Shown here: positions 31,573 through 40,000 of the stretch, in pieces
Numbering within the stretch: the stretch's first letter is position 1
Layout: the number at the start of each line of letters is the position of its first letter
Source: the human T2T-CHM13v2.0 reference genome, Homo sapiens
Direction: 5' to 3' (one strand)
Length of the DNA stretch: 64,000 nt
Assembly: GCF_009914755.1 (NCBI RefSeq)
Contig: NC_060929.1
Made by a program: the position numbers and the translations under genes
The notes under the pieces: model-generated
Databases searched by the model: none
What the model was told of the DNA's origin: nothing
The model's input: the letters and a program-made list of their open reading frames with translations, nothing else

Positions 31573-31876
31573 AATTTGGGAAGTTTTCACAAAGTATTTA
31601 TTTGAATAATATTTTTGACTTTTTGTCTCTTTCTTCTCTTTCTTCTCCTTCAGGTACTGCCATAATTGTATATTTAATGATGTCTGATGGATTCCTTGTG
31701 CTCTTTTACTCTTTTTTTTTTGTCCCTGTAATTTGCTAATTTCAAATGACCTGTCTTTGAGTTTACTGATTTTTCTTCTACATAATTGAGTCTGTTATTG
31801 GAAGTTTCTATTAAAATTTTTAGTTATGTCGTATTATTCAGCTCTAGGATTTCTTTTTTATTGCTTCTATTTCTTT

Positions 31877-32975
31877 TTTATTTCTTCTTTTTTTTTACTA
31901 TACTTTAAGTTCTGGGATACATGTGCAGAACGTGCAGGTTTGTTAGGTATACACGTGCCATGGTGGTTTGCTGCACCCATCATCCTGTCATCTACATTAG
32001 GTATTTCTCCTAATGCTATCCCTCTTCTAGCCTTCCACCCCCTGACAGGCCCCGGTGTGTGATATTCCCCTCCCTGTGTCCATGTGTTCTCATTGTTCAG
32101 CTCCCACTTATGAGTGAGAATATGTGGTGTTTGGTTTTCTGTTCCTGTGTTAGTTTGCTGAGAATGATGGTTTCCAGCTTCATCCATGTCCCTGCACAGG
32201 ACATGAACTCATCCTTTTTTATGGCTGCATAGTATTCAATGGTGTATATGTGCCACATTTTCTTTATCCAGTCTATCATTGATGGGAATTTGGGTTGGTT
32301 TCAAGTCTTTGCTTTTGTGAACAGTGTTGCAATAAATATATGTATGCATGTATCTTTATAGTAGAATAATTTATAATCCTTTGGGTATATATCCAGTAAT
32401 GGGATTGCTGCATCAAATGGTATTTCTAGTTCTAGATCCTTGAGGAATCGCCATGCTGTCTTCCACAATGGTTGAACTAATTTATACTCCCACCAACAGT
32501 GTAAAAGTGTTCCTATTTCTCCACATCCTCTCCAGCATCTGTTGTTTCCTGACATTTTAATGATTGCCATTCTAACTATTGTGAGATTGTATCTCATTCT
32601 GGTTTTGATTTGCATTTCTCTAATGATCAGTGATGATGAGATATTTTTCATGTTTTTTAGCCACATAAATGTCTTCTTTTGAGAAGTGTTTGTTCGTATC
32701 CTTTGCTTACTTTTTGATGTGGTTGTTTGTGGTTTTTTGTTTTGTTTTTGTAAATTTGTTTAAGTTCCTTGTAGATTCTGGATATTAACCCTTTGTCAGA
32801 AGAATAGATTGCAAAAATTTTCTCCCATTCTGTCAATTGCCTGTTCACTCTGATGATAGCTTCTTTTGCTGTGCAGAAGCTCTTTAGTTTAATTAGATCC
32901 AATTTGTCAATTTTTGGCTTTTGTTGCCATTTCTTTTTGGTGTTTTAGTCATGAAGTTTTTGCCCATGCCTATAT
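31877..32975 (-). mobile_element. L1PA 3' ~1.1 kb (ORF2 C-terminus, 3' UTR, poly-A)
   Basis: [20 protein letters not shown]...[27 protein letters not shown]; canonical L1PA 3' UTR and T-rich tail. Confidence 0.95.
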
Positions 32976-32984
32976 CATTTACTT

Positions 32985-35517: not shown

Positions 35518-35592
35518 AGCTTCCATTTATTGAGTACTTACTGGAGGCAGGCATTGTATTAAAAGCTCTACACAACTATCCTATTTAATGTT
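35518..35592 (-). mobile_element. MIR 3' fragment abutting the ZNF retrocopy
   Basis: Minus strand attaaataggatagttgtgtagagcttttaatacaatgcctgcctccagtaagtactcaataaatggaagct. Confidence 0.7.
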
Positions 35593-37020
35593 GCTTCTCT
35601 CTAGTATGAATTTGCTAATGTCTAATGAGGTGTGAGAACCAGCTCAATGCTTTGCCACATTCTCCACATTTGTAGAGTTTCTCTCCAGTGTGAATTCTCT
35701 CATGATTAGTAAGGTCTGAGAAGCACTTAAAGGTTTTGCAACATTCTTCACATTTGTAAGGTCTCTTTTCCATATGAATTCTCTTGTGGTTAATAAGGGT
35801 TGAAGGGCAGGTAAAGGCTTTGCCACAATCTTCACTGATGTAGGGTTTCTCTACAGTATGAATTTTATGTTTACTAATGGCTGAGAACCACTTAAAACCT
35901 TTTCCAAGTTCATTACATTTATAGGGTTTATCTCCAGTATGAATTATCTTATGTTTAGCAAGGTCTGAGAACTACCTACAGGCTTTGTTACATTCTTCAC
36001 ATTTGTAGGGTTTCTCTCCAGCATGAATTCTCTTACGAATAGTAAGGTCTGAGAAGCACTTAAAGGCTTTGCCACATTCTTCACATTGGTAGCATCTTTC
36101 TCCAGTATGATTTCTCTAGTGTTTAAGAAGGGTTGAGGAGCAGGTAACAGTTTTGTCACATTTTTCACATTTGTAGGGTTTCTCTCCCATATGAACTCTA
36201 TATTTAGTAAGGTTTGAGAACTTTTTAAAGGCTTTGCCACATTCTTCACATTTGTAGCATCTCTCTGCAGTATGAATTCTCTTATGTCTAGTAAAATCTG
36301 AGAACAACCTACAGTCTTTGCCACATTCTTCACATTTGTAGCATTTCTACGCTAAAAATTTTATGTTCAGTGAAGATTGAGCACAACTCAAAAGCTTTGC
36401 CGCATCTATTACATTGACAGGTTTTGCTATGGGTAGTTGACAAACATTGATAAAGGCCATTATAACTGCTTTTCTGCTCCCTTGCAATTACCCACACTTT
36501 GGTAGTCTTTCTTTAAATGTAAATTACTAAGGTCACAGCTTCTATATTTTCTCAGAATCACTTTTTTAAATGAATCTTTTATGTCGTGCTCCAGCATTAT
36601 CTCTGCAGTAAAATGAAAAGAGCCAGCTGGGTGTTTGACTACTGTCTCCTGTCTCTTCAAATTTCAGGGCTCTTTTCTTTGCTCCAGACAGGTAATCAAG
36701 TCTGGCTTAAAGATAGCAAGACCCAAGGAGACCAGGTTTCTGTAGTTCTCTAATATCACGTCCCTATACAAATGTTGCTGAGCAGAGTCCAGGCATTCCC
36801 ACTCTTCCGGGGAGAATTCTGTGGCCACATCCCTGAATGTTAACACTCCCACTTCCTGGCCTCCGGATATTCTGCCGTCCTCCCTCTGGATCTCCCAGTA
36901 CCTGCAGGTCGTGGGATAACAGGGGCTATGATAGAGCCACCAAGGAGCTCCTGAAGTGGAGGAGATGGAACAGTGGAGACGGGAACTGGGCTCAGAGCCT
37001 GCGAGCTAGGAGACAAAGCA
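35593..37020 (-). pseudogene. ZNF736: Processed pseudogene of a ZNF736-like KRAB C2H2 zinc-finger gene (ZNF91-related clade); the symbol names the presumed parent
   Basis: 5' UTR, KRAB-A ([36 protein letters not shown]), KRAB-B ([18 protein letters not shown]), spacer (HPAGSFHFTAE) and about 9 C2H2 fingers are contiguous with no introns. Start codon is GTG (36850-36852), TGA at 36664-36666, further stops and frameshifts. Peptides match the recalled ZNF736 protein; close paralogs are not excluded. Confidence 0.88.
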
Positions 37021-40000
37021 CTTCTATTTCTTTATTAAACTTCTGATTGTGATCATGCATTGTTTTCCTAATTTCATTTAGTTATCTCTCTGCATTTTCT
37101 TGCATCTCTTTGAGTTTAAGATGATTATTTTCAATTCTTTTTCAGGCAATCTATATAACTCCATTTCCTTGAGGTCAGTTATTAAACCTTTATTAGTTTC
37201 CTTTGGTGGTGTCATGTTTGCCTTAATCTTTGTTATCATGTAGCCTTGCACAAATATCTGTGTATTTGAAGAAGCAAACTTCTCTTAGAGACCTATAGAC
37301 TAGTTTCAACAAGTTAAAGTACTTCCCTGTAAGGTCTCTAGACTGATGAAATTGACTCTGGGGTTGTAGTTGAATGGGGTTAAATCCAGGTATTGTGGCT
37401 GATGCTGGGTCTACAGTGGAGACCACAGTTGGTTGGCCTATTCCTAGGGGCCCTAGTGAGTGTGGGTCCTACCTTGTCACTGGGTGGGCTATACTGTCTT
37501 CAGGACCTTGGTCTTTGGGGCTTGCCCTAGGATGAGTGTCCTCTTCAGAGTTCAGACATTAGGCCTGTTACCAGGTATGCCTATGGGTATATTGGCTTTT
37601 TATGAGTCTCTGGAAGGACATCCCTTGGGCAATTAGTTGAATTCCTGAGTTGTCTATACTACTCCAGTCCATGGCTGAGATGAGCTACAACTGAGACACA
37701 GGGTTGTTTCAGGTCCACAACTGACACAGATTTTTCAGGCCTGTCTTCGGGGGATAGGCATGTCTCCCAGTGGGTCCCTGGGTAGACAGGCCTGCTCTTA
37801 GACTGTAGTTGAGAGGGGATGCACGTAATTTATAGGGATGTTTCAATATCCACAGTGTTACTGAGGTCAGGGTGTCAGTCTGAAGGAGCACTAGTGAATT
37901 TGCTTTTTTCCAGGTCTGTAGAAGGCCAAACTAGTCTTAGTTCTCAGACAAGAGGGCCAGTGCCAAGATCCAGGGGTGCTTAATGAATCACTGAGGGACA
38001 GAGCTTGGCAAGGCTGCCACACTGACTCAGATAGGTTCATATCCTGACAGGATACTGGCTGGGTAGAACTGCTTCCAGACCACAGCTTTGGGGGGGCTGA
38101 AACCAAGCTTCAAAGATAAGTCAGAATCTGCCACGGGACTCATGTTGGCAAGCTAACTCAGTGGCAACTGCCAACGAGACACCCAGCAGTTCCCTGTATG
38201 AGCAGAATTGCTTCAACATCACAGAGAGGCTGGAGCTGACAAGGCCTTTTCCAAAACTTCTGTTTTGAATATTGTCCTGATCTGTCTCCCAGGAGTTCTC
38301 TGTGCACACAAGGTAGCTCTGGAGTTGCAGCAAAGAGATGCTGGAGCTGAGACAGGTCTCCTTTAGGGTGTGCTGTGGGATGAAGGTTACCGAGCCTGTC
38401 CAGTTGACATAGATAGCCATGTCTCCCAGAAGTTCCCTGTGCTTTTGTGATAGCTCTCTGACTAGCAAGAGGGCTCTGGAGCTGAGACTAGGCCCCTTCA
38501 GGATCTGCTGTGGGACAGAGGCTGGCAAGCCTGTCCCAGTTGCACAGATGGGTCCTTATACAAGCAATACTAAGCTGAGACTGCTGCAGAGTGGGGCTAG
38601 AGCCTAGTTACAAAAATAATTTTCAAGTCAACTGCCAAGACCAATATTGATGAACCCATGAGCCTTTCTGCCGAGGAACTATTGTGACTCCTTTTGGACT
38701 CCTTGGTAACATTTGGTAGCAGGCTCAAGGCCAAACTAGATTCTAGCCAAGCCCTTCAGGAAATGGGGGTGTTTCCAGGTTTGAATCCAGAAACACAGTT
38801 AATGTATCTATCACCTGGGTGTGGGTCCTCACTCTCAAAATGACCCCCCTAGGTCTTGGACTCCATGAGAGTTTCACAACCTGCAGCCTAAATACTAAAG
38901 CTTCTACAAAGAGACTTTGGTCTGTGGAAGAATGCAGAATTCTTGTTGTTGTGCAGTAATATAAGCAGCTGATCTCCTGTTCTGCCACCTTGCTAACATC
39001 ATTTTAACAATGCCTTTAAAAAAAAAAGACAAAAGCCATATAATTCTAGCCCCACAGCATTTGCTACTTTAATCAGATATTTTGAATAAAACTAATTAAA
39101 TATTTGCCAGAAAGTTTGCTTCATATGGATTGAATGCACATAAGGAAATGTTTAAAACAATTGTTTTAAGGATATTTAGACAATTAATGCATCTATTTGA
39201 CAGACCTGGAGCAGTTAGTGTGTGCTGCTAAGGTTTCTACCTCTAGATGCAAGAAAGGGTACCCTTGTGCTTTCTGTTTGTCTAGTTGTGGCAAGATTGA
39301 ATAGAAGAATACAGGGAATAAATATGGAAGGAGAATTTCTGCAACTCAGGAATAACCTTGTAAACAATGAAGAGCCTGTTTTACTCCAAAGAATAACCTA
39401 AAATTTGAGTTTATGTGAGAAGTGTAGGAAAATGTCCCCTACCACCCACACCTGGTAGATTATAACAAAACTAATTAAAAGCAAGCCAGGGAAGGAAGGG
39501 AAAAAGGGAAGGAGGGAGGTATCAGGTGGGAGGGATGGAGGCAGAAAGGAAGAAAAGAAAAAGAAAGAGACTTCCAGTTTTAAGATATTACATTAGAGAT
39601 AATATGTCAATTATGGTATTATCAGGCCATATACGATAGACAAAAATTGACCTAACATCAATATTTCTCCAATTTTAAATAATTTAAAAACTAGGACTCA
39701 TGCATATGCCATGAGTCTCAAGCTTAGTGTTTGCTTTGAGAAAGCATTCAATAAATCATTTTCCTGTACCAAAATCTCCCTTTATCCATCCATCATGTTA
39801 ATCCATTTTGAGGGATTTTTTTTTTTTTTTTTGACAGTACAGATCTTAGTCATCTTTAAAGAAGAACACATCCATCGCCTTATCTTTGTTGCTCACAGAC
39901 TACCTCTTGAACTCCTGTCCTACTCACTGGATGTATTAAAATGTTAATGTATATTCTCCACTACTATTTTATTATCACTTTATCTGTGATTATTTGTGAT

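What the first reader, a model, noticed from the sequence alone, without database searches (positions are those of the whole stretch)
31864..37033. A 5.1-kb chimeric retro-insertion: spliced ZNF736-like mRNA + captured genomic sequence + L1 poly-A, within one TSD
Seen: an exact 13-bp direct repeat (cttctatttcttt; 31864-31876 and 37021-37033) brackets pieces that repeat annotation would treat as unrelated. The host L1 ORF1 sequence reads straight across once the block is removed. The nick site (CTTT/AT) and left-end poly-T fit L1-mediated target-primed reverse transcription. On the minus strand the block reads ZNF 5' UTR, KRAB-A, KRAB-B, about 9 fingers (intronless), ~2.6 kb of unrelated sequence, then an L1PA 3' end with poly-A. 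Inference: one RNA that started at a KRAB-ZNF promoter and ended at an L1 polyadenylation site was retrotransposed whole. If other copies share these junctions, this is a non-autonomous composite retroelement family (ZNF head, L1 tail) that disperses KRAB-ZNF sequence and cargo.
Basis: partly seen in the sequence, partly recalled or inferred. Interest (0 to 1): 0.9.

Follow-up and report, generated by a model that had tools for sequence, protein, structure and literature searches.

The report
Two-source chimeric retrocopy inside old L1
This is a dead 5.1-kb retrocopy that fuses a spliced ZNF736-like messenger RNA to a piece of a GABRB2 intron ending in an L1 tail, a one-off example of a known kind of L1-made chimera rather than a new mobile-element family.

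Summary
An exact 13-bp direct repeat (31864-31876, 37021-37033) brackets a 5,144-bp insert in the ORF1 region of an old minus-strand L1, and the L1 is continuous without the insert. On the minus strand the insert reads: intronless ZNF736-like mRNA copy, then 2.6 kb of unique sequence, then 1.09 kb of L1 3' end with an A-rich tail.

The unique sequence and the L1 tail are one block. It is copied from chr5:161,826,104-161,829,824, in the last intron of GABRB2 on the sense strand, where that truncated L1 already sits. The ZNF part comes from four exons on chr7 at 65.52-65.56 Mb. It stops 11 nt before the parent's stop codon and joins the intron block with 1 nt of overlap and no splice signals. 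No locus holds ZNF sequence next to the cargo, and the cargo has only these two genome copies. So there is no single source RNA locus and no family.

The ZNF and L1 parts have decayed equally at this site, 4.4% and 4.3%, which fits one event. The best reading is L1 target-primed reverse transcription with a template switch, a Buzdin-type chimeric retrogene. Interest is low to moderate.

The parts
31864..31876 (.). Target-site duplication, left copy (13 bp). It lies next to the A-rich tail of the insert.
   Evidence: Exact 13-mer. The flanking bases differ.
31877..31888 (-). Outer, interrupted part of the A-rich tail of the retrocopy. On the minus strand it follows a run of 9 A at 31889-31897.
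   Evidence: Sequence read. The alignment to the source block starts at 31889.
31889..32976 (-). L1 3'-end fragment of about 1.09 kb. It is a copy of the truncated L1 resident in the GABRB2 intron and has the same truncation point as the source.
   Evidence: All 39 non-self matches (40 of 17,500 candidates scored) are L1 3' ends at 88-90% identity, ending at window 32970-32978, most at 32976. The alignment to the source runs without a break across the L1/cargo boundary.
32977..35593 (-). 'Cargo': 2.6 kb of GABRB2 last-intron sequence in the sense strand, 5'-truncated at 35593.
   Evidence: Aligns to chr5:161,827,180-161,829,824 with 9.2% substitutions. The source lies between GABRB2 exons.
35593..35593 (-). 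Junction base (C) shared by both source sequences: 1-nt microhomology, no filler, no GT/AG.
   Evidence: Three-way comparison of the window, the chr7 parent and the chr5 source.
35594..36630 (-). Copy of the ZNF736-like last exon: linker plus all 9 fingers. It ends 11 nt before the parent's stop codon, so the 3' UTR and poly-A of the ZNF mRNA are absent. It carries 10-11 in-frame stops, and 5 of 9 finger motifs are still intact.
   Evidence: 92% identity to chr7:65,555,945-65,556,991. Parent ORF and motif counts. Pfam zf-C2H2.
36627..37018 (-). Copy of ZNF736-like exons 1-3 (5' UTR, KRAB-A, KRAB-B), spliced. The presumed start codon reads GTG here. This span equals RefSeq pseudogene LOC100289569.
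   Evidence: The exons match chr7:65,521,834-65,522,009, 65,544,109-238 and 65,544,737-833. KRAB E 8.6e-24. Exon 1 alignment.
37019..37020 (-). Two bases between the ZNF 5' end and the duplication. They do not match the parent and their origin is unresolved.
37021..37033 (.). Target-site duplication, right copy (13 bp). The endonuclease-type site on the + strand is CTTT/AT.
30708..31863 (-). Host: old L1, ORF1 region downstream of the insertion point, interrupted by an Alu at about 31268-31562.
   Evidence: Pfam Transposase_22 and Tnp_22_dsRBD. Alu-like matches.
37034..37900 (-). Host: old L1, upstream of the insertion point (start of ORF1 and 5' region).
   Evidence: About 70% identity to many dispersed copies that also carry the left flank next to it.

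Best explanation
I read this as a single L1-mediated target-primed reverse transcription event, roughly 25-40 million years ago, that produced a bipartite chimeric retrocopy from two unrelated RNAs.

The proposed steps are as follows.
1. L1 endonuclease nicked the + strand at CTTT/AT inside an old L1.
2. The T-rich 3' end primed on the poly-A of RNA 1. RNA 1 was a transcript of the GABRB2 last intron in the sense strand, most simply pre-mRNA, that had been cut and polyadenylated at the poly-A signal of a 5'-truncated L1 fragment sitting in that intron.
3. After copying 3.7 kb (the L1 tail plus 2.6 kb of intron), the reverse transcriptase switched to RNA 2. RNA 2 was a spliced ZNF736-like mRNA, entered 11 nt upstream of its stop codon, with a single shared C at the switch point.
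4. The enzyme ran to the mRNA's 5' end.
5. Second-strand joining produced the 13-bp duplication.

Shown here: the duplication, the empty-site continuity, the two separate source loci, the spliced state of the ZNF part, the junction anatomy and the equal decay of the ZNF and L1 parts.

Inferred: the template switch itself, as opposed to joining of the RNAs beforehand; that RNA 1 was GABRB2 pre-mRNA; and the date. The product is a non-functional pseudogene.
For: - Duplication and nick site.
- Host L1 continuous across the site: 9 of 9 paralogous copies place the flanks side by side, 3 of 9 in exact register.
- The L1 tail and cargo align as one block, window 31889-35593 to chr5:161,826,104-161,829,824. 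Identity is 88.3% over 3,771 columns and the L1 truncation junction is the same.
- The source lies on the sense strand between exons of a Cys-loop receptor gene. These are PF02932 matches on the minus strand at 161,863,566-655, 161,859,570-944 and 161,822,915-3,232. The last exon translates to GABA-A beta-2: E about 3e-66, against 1.8e-39 for beta-1.
- The source L1 still carries an AATAAA in its A-rich end.
- The ZNF part corresponds to four chr7 exons joined without introns.
- The parent continues past the junction with 4 more codons and a stop, and the source continues upstream with unrelated intron sequence. The overlap is 1 nt, with no filler and no GT/AG.
- Same age at this locus: substitutions on the window branch are 45 of 1,025 (4.39%) in the ZNF exon, polarised with three paralogs. 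They are 43 of 1,001 (4.30%) in the L1 part, measured against 11 other copies.
- The cargo pair differs by 9.2%, which is about twice that figure.
- The defining features of such chimeras, and the template-switch model, are as listed in PMC2104539 (passages read) and in Law & Burns, Figure 7 legend.
Against: - The 5' part is not a full-length RNA copy. It lacks the last 11 nt of the coding sequence and the whole 3' UTR, whereas the classic description says 5' parts are full-length.
- A template switch cannot be told apart from ligation or recombination of the two RNAs before reverse transcription on sequence alone.
- No predicted RNA structure marks the switch site (z -0.11).
- GABRB2 is, from recall, a neuronal gene, so germline presence of its pre-mRNA is assumed and not shown.
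- No other primate genome could be examined, so the empty site and the date are untested.
- I could not confirm my reading that an old repeat runs through the junction point at the source.
Confidence: 0.6

Rival explanations
1. Two nested insertions. An ordinary ZNF736 processed pseudogene with its 3' UTR and poly-A inserted first and made the 13-bp duplication. Later a second L1-mediated event primed in that pseudogene's poly-A tract. It inserted the GABRB2-intron/L1 retrocopy in the same orientation and deleted the ZNF 3' UTR and the last 11 nt of coding sequence (a target-site deletion).
For: The geometry allows it. The insert's A-rich tail abuts the left duplication copy, exactly where a pre-existing poly-A tail would lie. 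The ZNF copy lacks precisely its 3' end. From recall, poly-A tails are favoured L1 endonuclease targets and L1-associated target deletions are known.
Against: The ZNF part and the L1 part show the same decay at this locus, 4.39% and 4.30%, so any interval between the two events must be short. The model needs three coincidences: a hit in this tail, the same orientation, and a deletion ending inside the ZNF copy. There is no trace of a second duplication or of ZNF 3' UTR.
Confidence: 0.13
2. The two RNAs were already joined before reverse transcription and the fusion RNA was copied in one pass. The joining could have been RNA ligation, non-canonical trans-splicing, or transcription of a now-lost rearranged allele. 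This is the nearest surviving form of the first reader's 'one RNA' idea.
For: Same orientation, direct join and a single duplication. RNA-level joining is an accepted route for some L1 chimeras: RtcB ligation for U6/L1, and proposed trans-splicing for mRNA/L1 (Law & Burns, sections read; PMC6789731 seen in a search listing only).
Against: There is no GT/AG or other splice signal at the junction. In 6 of Law & Burns's 17 mRNA/L1 chimeras the gene exons end exactly at splice donors, whereas here the break is inside the last exon. No present-day locus has ZNF sequence next to the cargo.
Confidence: 0.17
3. One reading: a non-autonomous composite retroelement family (KRAB-ZNF head, L1 tail) that spreads ZNF sequence and cargo.
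For: Only the structure of this one copy.
Against: The cargo has two full-length copies in this complete human genome, the intronic source (no ZNF) and this insert. The source junction region matches only itself and this insert. The copy carries no promoter upstream of the mRNA 5' end. It has lost its presumed start codon and has 10-11 in-frame stops.
Confidence: 0.02
4. An ordinary ZNF736 processed pseudogene in which the 'cargo' and L1 tail are simply the gene's own long 3' UTR.
For: Many KRAB-ZNF mRNAs have long repeat-rich 3' UTRs (recall). This was my first mundane guess.
Against: The chr7 parent's sequence after the junction is unrelated to the cargo. The cargo has no chr7 copy.
Confidence: 0.01

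Closest known systems
Bipartite chimeric retrogenes formed by L1 template switching (Buzdin, Gogvadze and colleagues; features as listed in PMC2104539, passages read)
   Same: Two unrelated transcripts are joined directly in the same orientation. The 3' part is a 5'-truncated copy of a polyadenylated RNA. The 5' part reaches the 5' end of its RNA. The whole is flanked by a short direct repeat and sits at an L1 endonuclease-type site.
   Different: - The 5' part is an mRNA cut near the end of its coding sequence, not a full-length small nuclear RNA.
- The 3' part is neither an L1 transcript nor a mature mRNA. It is intronic host-gene RNA that ends at a resident L1 fragment.
mRNA/LINE-1 chimeric insertions catalogued by Law & Burns (bioRxiv 2025; Cell Genomics 2026, PMC13174262). 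I read the abstract and sections 24, 28 and 30, and searched the supplements.
   Same: [quoted passage not shown]
   Different: - Their 17 cases mostly carry near-full-length L1s, and in 6 of the 17 the gene exons end exactly at splice donors. Here the L1 is a 1.09-kb fragment, 2.6 kb of intron lies between gene and L1, and the break is not at a splice site.
- The locus is not in their tables. There were no hits for ZNF736 or GABRB2 in the 4 supplementary files, and no chr5 entry in the mRNA table.
Processed pseudogenes (trans-mobilised mRNA retrocopies)
   Same: Spliced and intronless, poly-A at the 3' end, a duplication, and decay by stops and frameshifts.
   Different: The ZNF copy lacks its own 3' UTR and poly-A. 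The 3' end comes from another locus.
L1 5' transduction and premature polyadenylation at sense-oriented intronic L1s (PMC3192792, search listing only; the rest from recall)
   Same: Upstream flanking DNA of an L1 is carried along with it, and an intronic sense L1 supplies the poly-A site.
   Different: The L1 here is a 3' fragment without open reading frames, so it cannot have mobilised itself. The RNA must have been copied in trans.

Membership tests
L1-mediated (TPRT) retro-insertion | Short target-site duplication flanking the insert | tested here: met
   Exact 13 bp at 31864-31876 and 37021-37033. 0 of 100 shuffles reach the observed count.
L1-mediated (TPRT) retro-insertion | A-rich tail at the 3' end, next to one duplication copy, and a T-rich/A endonuclease-type nick site | tested here: met
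   The tail is at 31877-31897 (minus strand) and the site reads CTTT/AT. The consensus motif itself is recalled.
L1-mediated (TPRT) retro-insertion | Empty site: the flanks are continuous once the insert and one repeat copy are removed | tested here: met
   Tested on paralogous L1 copies, not on orthologous loci. The flanks are adjacent in 9 of 9, with exact register in 3 of 9.
Bipartite chimeric retrogene (Buzdin type) | The two parts derive from different transcripts or loci | tested here: met
   The ZNF exons are on chr7 at 65.52-65.56 Mb. The 3' block is from the GABRB2 intron at chr5:161.83 Mb.
Bipartite chimeric retrogene (Buzdin type) | Both parts joined directly in the same transcriptional orientation | tested here: met
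   Both parts read on the window minus strand. The overlap is 1 nt with no filler.
Bipartite chimeric retrogene (Buzdin type) | The 3' part is a 5'-truncated copy of a polyadenylated RNA | tested here: met
   The block ends at the L1 A-rich end and breaks off at an arbitrary point of the intron.
Bipartite chimeric retrogene (Buzdin type) | The 5' part is a full-length copy of a cellular RNA | tested here: not met
   The 5' end is plausibly complete. Homology starts 2 nt from the duplication, 175 nt upstream of the exon 1 donor. The 3' end is missing: the copy stops 11 nt before the stop codon and has no 3' UTR. I file this as a variant of the kind, not a textbook member.
U6/L1-type small-RNA chimeras | A small nuclear or other structured RNA at the 5' side of the junction | tested here: not met
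   An Rfam scan of 31500-37400 found no family at its gathering score. The only hit is mir-544 at 28.8 bits against a cut-off of 66.5, inside a dispersed repeat.
Spliced or trans-spliced gene/L1 chimera (Law & Burns) | The gene part ends at a splice donor, or the partner begins at an acceptor | tested here: not met
   The parent reads CTCCAC / TCCACA after the junction, and the source reads ...AGAT(C) before it. There is no GT, GC or AG.
   There is one copy of the ZNF/cargo junction in this genome.
KRAB zinc-finger gene (as a coding member) | Intact open reading frame with KRAB and C2H2 fingers | tested here: not met
   The domains are recognisable. However, there are 10-11 stops in the finger exon, 5 of 9 motifs are intact, and the presumed ATG reads GTG.

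The most novel reading that the evidence does not exclude
Sense-oriented L1 fragments in introns may create a class of polyadenylated, L1-tailed pre-mRNA pieces that the L1 machinery copies in trans and readily fuses to mRNAs. The source L1 landed in GABRB2 and was retro-copied again almost at once: only 2 of 1,001 sites are shared-derived, which is control level. That would then be a sign that freshly inserted L1 tails are unusually good templates, and not a coincidence of timing. On this reading the locus would be the first dissected example of an mRNA / intronic pre-mRNA chimera of this class.
Probability: 0.1. Interest if true: 0.5.

Novelty: new member of a known kind. Interest (0 to 1): 0.3.

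Why it matters
The locus is a clean, fully resolvable example of L1 machinery stitching together RNAs from two chromosomes. Both source loci, the exact junction and the relative timing can be read from one genome.

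It also corrects the annotation. RefSeq lists only 398 bp as a ZNF736 pseudogene, but the retrocopy spans 5.1 kb, includes all nine fingers, and carries a 3.7-kb copy of a GABRB2 intron that could mislead read mapping or paralog analysis at GABRB2.

It does not reveal a new mobile-element family or a functional gene.

Tried and rejected
- Cargo as the ZNF736 3' UTR: rejected. The parent sequence after the junction is unrelated and the cargo has no chr7 copy.
- My own first reading, that the ZNF copy breaks 'mid finger array', was wrong. The parent ORF ends 4 codons after the junction, and what follows is a degenerate finger in the 3' UTR.
- An old repeat running through the junction point at the source would independently prove which copy is the original. 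It looked so by eye, from recall of the repeat, but three searches gave no spanning match: whole genome, six fetched repeat loci, and the window plus all loci. I leave this unproven.
- A duplication flanking the resident L1 at the source could not be resolved. Both candidate sites are A-rich and merge with the tail.
- RNA structure at the switch site: none beyond shuffles (z -0.11; 91 of 200 shuffles fold as well).
- Excess shared private mutations between the window L1 and the source L1: none. There are 2 of 1,001, against 0-5 in 22 control pairs. The link between the two copies rests on the shared truncation junction and the contiguous cargo, not on L1 substitutions.
- L1 subfamily name: not testable here because there is no repeat library.
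- Literature: LOC100289569 occurs in 0 papers of the library. ZNF736 occurs in 54 papers, and none of the 10 listed concerns this locus.

Full report
**1. What is there**

The 13-mer CTTCTATTTCTTT occurs exactly at 31864-31876 and 37021-37033. With up to one mismatch the window has 4 matches against 0.47 expected, and 0 of 100 shuffles reach 4. The neighbouring bases differ on both sides, so the repeat is exactly 13 bp.

The DNA outside the repeat is one old L1 on the minus strand.
- Pfam finds the L1 ORF1 RBD-like domain at 31001-31177(-), E 8.7e-7, above the cut-off.
- It finds a weak dsRBD-like match at 30708-30875(-), below the cut-off.
- In 9 of 9 paralogous copies of that old L1 fetched from the genome, the left and right flanks lie side by side.
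- In 3 of 9 the 13-mer maps once, in exact register. The other six are off by 4-27 nt.

The + strand reads CTTT/ATTA at the right-hand copy. The left-hand copy is followed by a T-rich run and then the reverse complement of an L1 3' end.

**2. Anatomy on the minus strand**

From 37018 down to about 36627 lie the copies of three short exons. From 36630 to 35594 lies the copy of a long last exon. In the best-matching gene these four exons are spread over 35 kb:
- chr7:65,521,834-65,522,009 (84% identity)
- chr7:65,544,109-238 (92%)
- chr7:65,544,737-833 (93%)
- chr7:65,555,945-65,556,991 (92%)

Pfam confirms KRAB (E 8.6e-24) and C2H2 fingers. RefSeq calls the 5' 398 bp a ZNF736 pseudogene. I did not verify the name of the chr7 gene independently.

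The parent's last-exon ORF has 353 codons and nine canonical finger motifs. The copy stops after codon 349.3, which is 11 nt before the parent's stop. The whole coding sequence is therefore present, bar four codons. The entire 3' UTR and poly-A of the ZNF mRNA are missing.

The copy is dead. It has 10-11 stops in the finger exon, 5 of 9 motifs are intact, and the presumed ATG reads GTG.

**3. The 'cargo' and the 'L1 poly-A' are one piece from another locus**

Window 31889-35593 aligns as a single block to chr5:161,826,104-161,829,824 on the same strand, at 88.3% identity over 3,771 columns. The alignment runs unbroken through the L1/cargo boundary. The 1.09-kb L1 fragment was therefore already sitting next to the cargo at the source, with the same truncation point.

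Genome-wide, the cargo has only these two full-length copies. The other 38 scored matches cover just a roughly 200-bp dispersed repeat (40 of 292 candidates scored).

The source lies on the sense strand of a minus-strand Cys-loop receptor gene. It sits between exons at 161,859,570-944 and 161,822,915-3,232. The last exon translates to GABA-A receptor beta-2: PDB chains at E about 3e-66, against 1.8e-39 for beta-1. The block is thus GABRB2 last-intron sequence, ending about 2.9 kb upstream of the last coding exon. The resident L1's A-rich end still contains an AATAAA.

**4. The junction**

At 35593 the window shares a single C with both sources.
- The chr7 parent continues with four codons and a stop.
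- The chr5 source continues upstream with unrelated intron sequence.
- There is no filler and no GT/AG.
- No small RNA family sits there.
- No unusual RNA fold sits there.
- No ZNF sequence lies in the 7 kb upstream of the block at the source.
- No ZNF match on chr5 other than the window appears among the 132 listed (40 of 701 candidates scored).

**5. Timing**

*ZNF part.* Using three paralogs to polarise changes, the ZNF exon has 45 of 1,025 changes (4.39%) on the window branch and 22 on the parent branch. Four changes could not be polarised.

*L1 part.* Measured against 11 other L1 3' ends, the window L1 part has 43 of 1,001 private differences (4.30%) and the source L1 has 54. Only 2 are shared, no more than the 0-5 seen in 22 control pairs.

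*Cargo.* The cargo pair differs by 9.2% in substitutions, about twice 4.3-4.9%.

The ZNF and L1 parts have therefore aged equally at this site, which fits one event. The L1 had entered GABRB2 only shortly before it was copied again.

With recalled primate neutral rates, 4.3-4.4% per lineage suggests roughly 25-40 million years. This date is an inference.

**6. Mechanism**

The best reading is one target-primed reverse transcription event.
1. It primed on the poly-A of an intronic GABRB2 transcript that had been terminated at the resident L1's signal.
2. It copied 3.7 kb.
3. It then switched template onto a spliced ZNF736-like mRNA near the end of its coding sequence.
4. It ran to the mRNA's 5' end.

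This is the model given for bipartite chimeric retrogenes (PMC2104539, passages read) and listed among the mechanisms in Law & Burns (Figure 7 legend).

Four of the five listed features of that kind are met. The fifth, a full-length 5' part, is not met, because the ZNF copy lacks its 3' end.

The rivals are as follows.
- The RNAs were joined before copying. There are no splice signals. In 6 of Law & Burns's 17 mRNA/L1 cases the gene exons end exactly at splice donors.
- A second insertion landed in the poly-A of an older ZNF pseudogene and deleted its 3' end. The geometry permits this, but the equal ages and the coincidences needed argue against it.

**7. Novelty**

The kind is known. This locus is not in the Law & Burns tables: there were no hits for ZNF736 or GABRB2 in four supplementary files, and the mRNA table has no chr5 entry. 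LOC100289569 occurs in no paper of the library.

I rate it a new member of a known kind. It has two uncommon traits: the 3' partner is intronic pre-mRNA ending in a resident L1 fragment, and the mRNA partner is entered internally.

Noticed in passing
L021/L022 = chr5:161,826,104-161,827,190, compared with window 31889-32976: The truncated L1 in the GABRB2 intron and its retro-copied twin share only 2 of 1,001 derived sites, which is control level. The intronic L1 was therefore re-copied almost immediately after it landed. This may be a coincidence of an active period, or a hint that fresh L1 tails are good templates.
   Followed up: partly
window 31268-31562: An Alu-like element with an A-rich tail interrupts the host L1 ORF1 about 300 bp from the chimera. 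It matches Alus near the GABRB2 source at 77-79% identity.
   Followed up: no
window 35188-35395 (inside the cargo): A roughly 200-bp dispersed repeat with many genomic copies at 70-86% identity. It gives a sub-threshold Rfam mir-544 match, 28.8 bits against a 66.5 cut-off. It is most likely just an old interspersed repeat.
   Followed up: no
G000 contig 24 (several places, e.g. 7.5-8.0 Mb and 23.8-25.8 Mb) and contig 8 at 47.16-47.25 Mb: There are multiple ZNF736-like last-exon copies at about 80% identity on contig 24 and 87-88% on contig 8. A paper on VCY2 origin mentions ZNF736 (PMC4370482, search listing only).
   Followed up: no
G000 C7:130,409,326; C9:35,168,142; C18:54,345,246; C4:78,534,988; C2:83,219,231: These are other intronless KRAB-ZNF 5' parts in which exons 1-4 are contiguous in one match, at 78-88% identity. 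They are further KRAB-ZNF processed pseudogenes, and none is linked to the cargo.
   Followed up: no
window 37019-37020: Two bases between the duplication and the first base that matches ZNF exon 1 do not match the parent. One is a G on the mRNA-sense strand, which could be a cap-derived extra base (recall). With 84% identity in this exon it cannot be decided.
   Followed up: partly
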